This document shows positions 970-1,319 of a DNA stretch of 6,595 nucleotides, one piece after another. Below the pieces are notes generated by a model. That model was not told the origin of the DNA. It saw only the letters and a list, made by a program, of their open reading frames with translations, and did no database searches. The number at the start of each line of letters is the position of its first letter. Position 1 is the first letter of the stretch. The position numbers and the translations under genes are program-made. This stretch comes from Escherichia coli. GTDB taxonomy: Bacteria; Pseudomonadota; Gammaproteobacteria; Enterobacterales; Enterobacteriaceae. The stretch is from assembly GCF_003334815.1 (NCBI RefSeq), contig NZ_QOWO01000068.1; one strand, written 5' to 3'.

Positions 970-1319
970 TGAAAGTTTCCAACGCGAGCCATTCGCGAGA
1001 GCCTTGAGTCCACGCTAGATCTATCTCATCTGCGCAAGGCAGAACGTGAAGACGGCCGCCCTGGACCTCGCCCGCGAGCGCCAGGCGCACGAGGCCGGCG
1101 CGCGGACCCGCGCCACGGCCCACGAGCGGACGCCGCAGCAGGAGCGCCAGAAGGCCGCCAGAGAGGCCGAGCGCGGCCGTGAGGCTTGGACGCTAGGGCA
1201 GGGCATGAAAAAGCCCGTAGCGGGCTGCTACGGGCGTCTGACGCGGTGGAAAGGGGGAGGGGATGTTGTCTACATGGCTCTGCTGTAGTGAGTGGGTTGC
1301 GCTCCGGCAGCGGTCCTGA

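What the first reader, a model, noticed from the sequence alone, without database searches (positions are those of the whole stretch)
1046..1288. Orphan 80-codon ORF between oriV and tetR with no ATG and a charged Ala/Arg/Glu-rich sequence
The ORF can only start at GTG 1046, since an in-frame stop lies at 1016-1018. It has no convincing ribosome-binding site and encodes a low-complexity segment (ARERQAHEAGARTRATAHERTPQQERQKAAREAERGREAW). It may be a real small gene, the 3' remnant of a gene disrupted when the tet module or oriV neighbourhood was assembled, or a GC-driven artefact. This is the only stretch of the window without a clear assignment.
Basis: inference. Interest (0 to 1): 0.3.

Follow-up and report, generated by a model that had tools for sequence, protein, structure and literature searches.

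The report
Gene relic beside tetR in Tn1721
The 80-codon ORF is a well-known stretch of the Tn1721/RK2 tetracycline-resistance module: most likely the dead tail of a lost gene that now also holds the tetR terminator, so it is ordinary and not a new gene.

Summary
The ORF is real as an open frame: GTG 1046 to TAG 1288, with an in-frame stop at 1016-1018. Its length means little, because random DNA of this composition gives about 5 ORFs of at least 80 aa per kb.

The window is a published resistance locus, Tn21 mer – IncP-1alpha oriV – truncated Tn1721. It is 100% identical to many enterobacterial plasmids.

RefSeq names the ORF 'transposase' (WP_000844627.1) and GenBank submissions name it 'relaxase'. 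Neither name has support. Pfam, NCBIfam and PHROGs gave nothing usable. An exhaustive HMMER search of 1.84 billion representative proteins returned only copies or fusions of this same DNA plus one unrelated repetitive protein.

Positions 1022-1198 show strong codon periodicity in the ORF's frame (GC3 0.90, p about 1e-4), which fits a relic of a high-GC gene. About a third of sampled plasmid copies carry a disrupted ORF: a 16-bp frameshift deletion, a 149-nt deletion, or 5' truncations.

The ORF's 3' part holds, on the opposite strand, a canonical intrinsic terminator (1235-1213 plus a T tract) 85 nt downstream of tetR.

Verdict: a non-functional gene relic plus the tetR terminator. Already known, low interest.

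The parts
1046..1288 (+). The 80-codon ORF (GTG start, TAG stop). RefSeq WP_000844627.1 'transposase'; 'relaxase' or 'hypothetical' in other records.
1016..1018 (+). In-frame TAG that closes the frame upstream. It is TAA in the roughly 93%-identical (7% diverged) E. cloacae lineage.
1020..1022 (.). Homology breakpoint. To the left lies the IncP-1alpha oriV flank (here and in pBS228/RK2 type) or the outer end of Tn1721 IRR-I (...GGGCTCCCC) in Tn1721-type records. To the right lies the shared tet module (TATCTCATCTGC...).
1022..1198 (+). Stretch with strong codon-like periodicity in the ORF's frame (GC1/2/3 = 0.76/0.58/0.90). Inferred relic of the 3' part of a gene from a high-GC donor.
1205..1235 (-). 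Intrinsic-terminator-like element for tetR: 9-bp perfect stem GCCCGTAGC/GCTACGGGC (1235-1213), 5-nt loop, then TTTTTCAT. It lies 85 nt downstream of the tetR stop and inside ORF codons about 54-64.
1320..1970 (-). tetR(A), convergent with the ORF.
1057..1072 (.). 16 bp (CCGCCCTGGACCTCGC) deleted in a common variant (about 519 plasmid records). The GTG start goes out of frame, and PGAP (NCBI's annotation pipeline) then calls an 80-aa CDS from CTG (WP_032140899.1).
1096..1239 (.). Approximate extent of a 149-nt deletion (a 5-nt microhomology makes the ends ambiguous) in the roughly 93%-identical (7% diverged) tet(A) lineage of E. cloacae IncHI2 plasmids. It shifts the frame and removes the hairpin.
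955..971 (.). Last (single) IncP oriV iteron. Recognisable homology to R751 oriV ends just after it.

Best explanation
Window 1021-1320 is the left arm of the tet(A) module shared by IncP-1alpha plasmids (RK2/pBS228 type) and Tn1721. The ORF in it is most likely the non-functional 3' tail of an unidentified gene from a high-GC donor, convergent with tetR and cut off at about 1019-1045 when the module was joined to its present left neighbour.

It has no demonstrable protein function. The database names 'transposase' and 'relaxase' are unsupported.

The only element in the segment with a plausible present-day job is on the opposite strand: a hairpin plus T tract that should terminate tetR transcription before it runs into oriV or IRR-I.

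**Shown:** the coordinates, the junction, the lack of homologues, the periodicity, the disrupted variants and the terminator motif.

**Inferred:** that the periodicity reflects a former gene, that the protein is not made or not needed, and that the hairpin actually terminates.
For: **Context**
- The window is 100% identical to many plasmids and matches the published Tn21-oriV-truncated Tn1721 locus (PMC3817090).
- pBS228 12052-16051 equals window 77-4076 at 99.8%.

**Junction**
- The breakpoint lies at 1021/1022 against Tn1721 IRR-I.

**Coding-like signal**
- Periodicity in the ORF's frame has p about 1e-4, starts at the junction and decays after about 1200.
- It stays in phase across the 1095/1096 deletion boundary. 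That argues the long form is ancestral.

**No parent gene**
- The word-indexed search of 5.8 billion proteins found only proteins of 50-150 aa.
- The exhaustive phmmer search of 1.84 billion representatives found 61 hits. Every longer or lower-identity one that I read was a fusion or frameshifted copy of this DNA, apart from one unrelated repetitive protein.
- Pfam and NCBIfam gave no match. PHROGs gave one hit at E 0.29, and the Protein Data Bank nothing better than E 0.14.

**Dispensability**
- A 16-bp frameshift deletion is present in about 519 of 4078 records.
- 789 of 4078 records cover less than 80% of 1021-1300. Truncated copies with tetR(A) still annotated under the match are seen, which queried 960-1340.
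- A 149-nt deletion is present in the diverged lineage.

**Terminator**
- The motif is at 1235-1213 on the minus strand.

**Expert curation**
- The curated map of Tn1721 lists no gene between IRR-I and tetR (PMC4899885).
Against: - No parent gene was found, so 'relic' rests on composition alone.
- A complete small gene starting at GTG 1046 would show the same periodicity.
- About two thirds of copies keep the ORF intact, but all copies are nearly identical, so this says little about selection.
- No transcript, ribosome-profiling or proteomic data were available.
- Terminator activity is predicted from the motif only. The hairpin is missing in the diverged lineage, so it is not essential.
Confidence: 0.6

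Rival explanations
1. Pure chance ORF. The segment is GC-rich non-coding spacer (tetR 3' flank) that was never a gene, and the open frame exists only because stop codons are rare at 70% GC.
For: - ORFs of at least 80 aa are expected at about 5 per kb in random DNA of this composition.
- Overlapping ORFs of similar size exist in other frames.
- There are no homologues and no domain.
- The peptide is low in complexity.
Against: - GC3 is 0.90 against GC2 0.58 over 1022-1198, p about 1e-4 by shuffling.
- The pattern GC3 > GC1 > GC2 is typical of real high-GC genes, as in the Tn1721 tnpA fragment in the same window.
- The pattern is absent from the adjacent oriV DNA.
Confidence: 0.22
2. A genuine, complete small gene: an 80-aa charged protein translated from GTG 1046 and carried with tet(A).
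For: - The frame is intact in roughly two thirds of about 4,000 plasmid copies.
- It shows codon-like periodicity.
- A weak AGG lies 6 nt upstream of the GTG.
- PGAP calls it a CDS.
Against: - No sigma-70-like promoter was found upstream on the + strand in 900-2100, apart from the tetA promoter.
- Nothing outside this element matches it among 1.84 billion representative proteins, which stand for about 15 billion.
- The start is lost in the 16-bp-deletion variant and in 5'-truncated copies that still have tetR(A) annotated.
- The frame is broken in the only diverged lineage.
- The C-terminal 28 codons lose periodicity and overlap the tetR terminator.
Confidence: 0.08
3. Specifically a fragment of a conjugative or mobilisation relaxase (as GenBank records say) or of a transposase (as RefSeq says).
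For: Only the product names in the records. C-terminal regions of relaxases are often charged and poorly conserved (general knowledge), so a relaxase tail could escape detection.
Against: - No Pfam or NCBIfam match even at E up to 10.
- No full-length relaxase or transposase among any hits.
- No similarity to the C-terminal 400 aa of R751 TraI.
- tblastn and blastn against 72,556 plasmids found only copies of this element.
Confidence: 0.07

Closest known systems
Tn1721 tet region (IRR-I – tetR – tetA(A) – pecM – truncated tnpA – IRR-II; GenBank X61367) and the RK2/RP4/pBS228 oriV–tetR interval
   Same: Sequence is identical or nearly so. Window 1022 onward follows IRR-I directly in Tn1721-type records. 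Window 77-4076 is 99.8% identical to pBS228. The same RefSeq protein WP_000844627.1 is annotated in both.
   Different: Nothing differs in the ORF itself. Here the module lacks the Tn1722 half and is joined through an IncP-1alpha oriV fragment to a Tn21 mer end, as described for pO111-CRL115 (PMC3817090).
Gene fragments left at the boundaries of mosaic resistance regions, for example the truncated tnpA and cysteine-hydrolase fragments in the same window
   Same: Short, truncated at a recombination junction, coding-like composition, dispensable, and often auto-annotated with a misleading product name.
   Different: For the other fragments the parent gene is identifiable. For this one no parent is detectable in any database searched.
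Rho-independent (intrinsic) terminators downstream of regulatory genes
   Same: GC-rich 9-bp perfect stem, 5-nt loop and a run of five T, 85 nt after the tetR stop on the tetR strand.
   Different: It sits inside an annotated convergent CDS. Its activity is untested, and it is absent from the diverged tet(A) lineage.

Membership tests
Conjugative/mobilisation relaxase (MOB families) | N-terminal relaxase domain with catalytic Tyr and His-triad motif (Pfam Relaxase/TrwC-type domains) | tested here: not met
   No Pfam family matched even at E up to 10 and no NCBIfam model matched. The peptide is only 80-89 aa and lacks any N-terminal domain.
Conjugative/mobilisation relaxase (MOB families) | Significant sequence similarity to some full-length relaxase, even if only over the C-terminal tail | tested here: not met
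   The exhaustive phmmer search gave 61 hits, none a relaxase. BLASTP against the R751 TraI C terminus gave E 2.7. tblastn of plasmids found only self copies.
Transposase (Tn3-family DDE or other) | Match to a transposase domain, or continuity with a transposase reading frame | tested here: not met
   No Pfam or NCBIfam hit. In Tn1721-type records tnpA ends inside IR, before the segment starts. Longer 'proteins' that join tnpA to the ORF are frameshifted or chimeric calls.
Tn1721 tet module / IncP-1alpha tet region | Near-identity to the segment that lies between IRR-I (or the RK2 oriV flank) and tetR(A), in the same order and orientation | tested here: met
   100% identity in thousands of records. 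The junction with IRR-I is at 1021/1022. Identity to pBS228 is 99.8%.
Intrinsic (rho-independent) terminator | GC-rich stem-loop followed by a T tract, on the strand of and downstream of a gene's stop codon | tested here: met
   9 pairs (7 GC), 5-nt loop and TTTTT, 85 nt after the tetR stop.
Intrinsic (rho-independent) terminator | Transcripts actually end there | not testable with these tools
   This needs Term-seq or 3'-RACE of tetR mRNA.
Bona fide small protein-coding gene | The reading frame is preserved in variants and diverged relatives | tested here: not met
   A 16-bp frameshift deletion in about 519 records, 5' truncations in about 19% of records, and a 149-nt out-of-frame deletion in the roughly 93%-identical lineage.
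Bona fide small protein-coding gene | Canonical start with a ribosome-binding site and a promoter | tested here: inconclusive
   GTG start with only AGG 6 nt upstream. No promoter-like site lies upstream on the + strand.

The most novel reading that the evidence does not exclude
The ORF (or at least its first 55 or so codons) is the tail of a gene from the still-unknown original host or replicon of tet(A), for example a mobilisation gene. If so, it would mark where the class A tetracycline determinant came from. Less likely, it encodes a real orphan 80-aa protein that travels with tet(A).
Probability: 0.06. Interest if true: 0.3.

Novelty: already known. Interest (0 to 1): 0.08.

Why it matters
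It matters mainly for annotation. One 80-aa entry (WP_000844627.1 and its near-copies) is propagated through thousands of plasmid records as 'transposase' or 'relaxase' with no evidence behind either name. That can mislead automated counts of mobility genes, for example MOB typing by keyword.

The exact junction at 1021/1022 is a useful landmark for tracing tet(A) modules. So is the presence of the oriV-linked junction in a tet(A) lineage about 7% diverged. That second fact suggests tet(A) sat next to an IncP-type oriV before Tn1721 formed.

There is no new biology in the ORF itself.

Tried and rejected
**Looking for a parent gene**
- Word-indexed search of 5.8 billion proteins: only short copies.
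- Exhaustive phmmer of 1.84 billion representatives: apart from one unrelated repetitive protein (P0141, 32% identity), every hit I read was a fusion with TEM or Tn3/Tn1721 tnpA, or a frameshifted assembly.
- tblastn and sensitive blastn against 72,556 plasmids: no copy diverged beyond the roughly 90% E. cloacae lineage.

**Looking for a domain or family**
- Pfam and NCBIfam: no match.
- PHROGs: one hit at E 0.29, of unknown function.
- Protein Data Bank sequences: E 0.14 to a mitoribosomal protein, compositional.
- R751 TraI C terminus: nothing.
- Rfam on 900-1400: nothing.

**Other ideas tested**
- The segment might be IncP backbone. R751 homology ends just after the last iteron at about 975, and no other IncP plasmid has it without tet(A).
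- The 1198/1199 breakpoint might be an ancestral junction. In the Shinella plasmid it is a cmx/IS5564 insertion with a target duplication, and in the one other record I examined (L007, Shigella flexneri) an IS26 lies next to it.

**Records and papers not reached**
- BN000925 and NC_004840 (pB10) are not in the collection.
- The Partridge 2018 review is not held.
- A literature search for the protein accession found nothing.

Full report
**1. The observation**

The ORF exists as described: 1046-1288 on the + strand, 80 codons, GTG start, and the quoted Ala/Arg/Glu-rich translation. TAG at 1016-1018 is in frame, and no ATG, GTG or TTG lies between it and GTG 1046. Only a weak AGG sits 6 nt upstream of the start. 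No promoter-like site precedes the ORF on the + strand.

Its length carries no weight. With the base composition of 1021-1290 the stop probability is 0.020 per codon, and random sequence gives about 5 ORFs of at least 80 aa per kb over six frames. ORFs of 54-123 aa overlap it in other frames.

**2. Where the window comes from**

The whole 6595 bp is 100% identical to many enterobacterial plasmids, for example pMRY16-002_3 (IncK2/Z) and pO111-CRL115 (NC_022992). Venturini et al. 2013 (PMC3817090) describe exactly this locus: a Tn21 derivative joined through an IncP-1alpha oriV fragment to a truncated Tn1721.

In window coordinates the layout is:

| Coordinates | Feature |
|---|---|
| 1-43 | merR 3' end |
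| 39-76 | Tn21-type inverted repeat |
| 77 to about 1020 | IncP oriV fragment |
| 1046-1288 | the ORF |
| 1320-1970 (−) | tetR(A) |
| 2076-3275 | tet(A) |
| 3307-4191 (−) | pecM/EamA |
| 4329-4721 (−) | cysteine-hydrolase fragment |
| up to 6476 | truncated Tn1721 tnpA |
| 6472-6509 | 38-bp Tn1721 inverted repeat |

The IncP-1alpha plasmid pBS228 (RK2 type) matches window 77-4076 at 99.8%. It carries the same annotated CDS between oriV and tetR.

**3.

Alignment with a Tn1721-type record (pK91) shows the outer end of IRR-I (...GAATTCTGCGGGCTCCCC) abutting TATCTCATCTGC, which is window 1022. In the window and in pBS228 the oriV flank (...CCACGCTAGAT) abuts the same point. About half of the sampled records start matching at window 1021. 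The boundary of the shared tet module is thus 1021/1022, 25 nt before the GTG.

Homology to R751 oriV can be followed only to just past the last iteron, at about 975.

A tet(A) lineage about 7% diverged, in E. cloacae IncHI2 plasmids (OW969716), keeps the oriV flank (window about 866-1020) joined to the segment at the same point. I infer that the oriV linkage predates the split of these two lineages, and that Tn1721 may have arisen when Tn1722 inserted at 1021/1022. This is an inference and was not tested further.

**4. Is it a gene?**

*Product names.* RefSeq calls the product 'transposase' (WP_000844627.1). Many GenBank records call it 'relaxase' or 'hypothetical protein'.

*Family and domain searches.* None of these names is supported:
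- Pfam gave no match even at E up to 10.
- NCBIfam gave none.
- PHROGs gave one hit at E 0.29.
- Protein Data Bank sequences gave only compositional hits at E of 0.14 or more.
- Comparison with the C terminus of R751 TraI gave nothing.

*Homologue searches.* I queried with the 89-aa frame from 1019.
- The 5.8-billion-protein index returned only proteins of 50-150 aa.
- The exhaustive HMMER search of 1.84 billion representatives returned 61 hits.
- I read the longer and lower-identity ones. Twelve of the thirteen are the same DNA fused to TEM, to Tn3-family transposase fragments or to unrelated genes, or are frameshifted assemblies. The thirteenth (P0141, 32% identity) is an unrelated repetitive protein.
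- tblastn and sensitive blastn against 72,556 plasmids found only this element.

*Expert curation.* The Hall laboratory's map of Tn1721 lists truncated tnpA-tetR-tetA(A)-pecM-truncated tnpA, with no gene between IRR-I and tetR (PMC4899885).

**5. Evidence for a coding past**

In the ORF's frame GC1/GC2/GC3 is 0.72/0.54/0.84. Over 1022-1198 it is 0.76/0.58/0.90, with p about 1e-4 against shuffles.

Three controls support this reading:
- The adjacent oriV DNA shows no periodicity.
- The signal fades after about 1200 (p 0.12-0.18 for 1199-1288).
- The order GC3 > GC1 > GC2 is that of real high-GC genes in the same window, such as the tnpA fragment at 0.65/0.43/0.89.

The signal begins at the junction and stays in phase across the ends of the 149-nt deletion. 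This supports a truncated coding sequence with the long form ancestral.

**6. Evidence that the ORF is dispensable**

- A 16-bp deletion (window 1057-1072, between CCGC repeats) occurs in about 519 of 4078 plasmid records, the 94.3% identity class. It puts the GTG out of frame, and PGAP (NCBI's annotation pipeline) then calls an 80-aa CDS from CTG.
- 789 of 4078 records cover less than 80% of 1021-1300. Recurrent 5' breakpoints occur at about 1057, 1068, 1105 and 1199, with tetR(A) still annotated. The one such record I opened (breakpoint 1199) has an IS26 alongside.
- The diverged lineage lacks 149 nt, which is not a multiple of three.
- A Shinella plasmid has a cmx/IS5564 element inserted at 1197/1198.

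Roughly a third of sampled copies therefore lack an intact ORF.

**7. What the segment does contain**

On the minus strand, 85 nt after the tetR stop, lies a perfect 9-bp GC-rich stem (1235-1213) with a 5-nt loop, followed by TTTTTCAT. The terminator scan finds it. It is the dominant local structure in the RNA fold and a perfect inverted repeat. There is no T tract on the + strand side, so it would serve tetR and not the ORF. It occupies ORF codons about 54-64, the part of the ORF where periodicity is lost. Rfam has no match in 900-1400.

**8. Conclusion**

The best explanation (confidence about 0.6) is a non-functional relic of the 3' end of an unknown high-GC gene, convergent with tetR and cut at the left boundary of the tet(A) module, with the tetR terminator embedded in its 3' part.

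The rivals are:
- a pure chance ORF (about 0.22);
- a real orphan small gene (about 0.08);
- specifically a relaxase or transposase fragment (about 0.07, a subset of the relic reading).

The feature is already known sequence in thousands of records. Its only practical significance is that its database names are unsupported. Interest is low.

Noticed in passing
window 1-76: The window opens with the 3' end of merR (1-43) and a Tn21-type 38-bp inverted repeat (about 39-76). Homology to the IncP-1alpha plasmid pBS228 begins exactly at 77. The oriV fragment is therefore bounded on the left by a Tn21 end, and the published description (PMC3817090) reports no target duplications at the insertion site of the whole resistance locus.
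   Followed up: partly
L008 (pBS228) 16433-16503, matching window 1804-1874: A 71-bp stretch 93% identical to the helix-turn-helix-coding part of tetR(A) lies about 20 bp beyond the trfA stop in the IncP-1alpha plasmid. It looks like a second, older tetR relic at the trfA-side edge of the accessory region.
   Followed up: no
L005 (E. cloacae OW969716) 1426-3226, matching window 870-2827: A tet(A)/tetR lineage about 93% identical to the common one carries the same oriV-flank junction. It has a 149-nt deletion that removes most of the ORF and the terminator hairpin. The in-frame upstream stop is TAA there instead of TAG.
   Followed up: partly
L003 (Shinella sp. XGS7 plasmid) about 6177-8680, at window 1197/1198: A cmx chloramphenicol-efflux gene plus IS5564 is inserted inside the ORF, with terminal repeats TGTGATGTCC/GGACATCACA and an apparent 6-bp duplication GCTAGG.
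   Followed up: partly
window 1057-1072; L004 1501-1743: The common 16-bp deletion variant is still annotated as an 80-aa CDS (WP_032140899.1) starting at CTG. This shows that the gene caller simply takes the longest open frame here.
   Followed up: yes
window 1186-1557 (+): A 123-aa ORF runs antisense through the 3' half of tetR. It is another chance ORF typical of this GC-rich DNA.
   Followed up: no
window 4329-4800: A truncated cysteine-hydrolase (isochorismatase-family) gene on the minus strand abuts the 5'-truncated Tn1721 tnpA, with ORFs from both strands overlapping across the junction. pBS228 homology ends earlier, at 4076 inside pecM.
   Followed up: no
L009 (R751) about 15180-15215: R751 has a similar minus-strand hairpin plus T-tract (AGCCGCCCGAGATCGAGGCGGCTTTTTTT) just downstream of trfA, facing oriV. 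Genes that converge on the IncP oriV seem generally to be capped by terminators.
   Followed up: no
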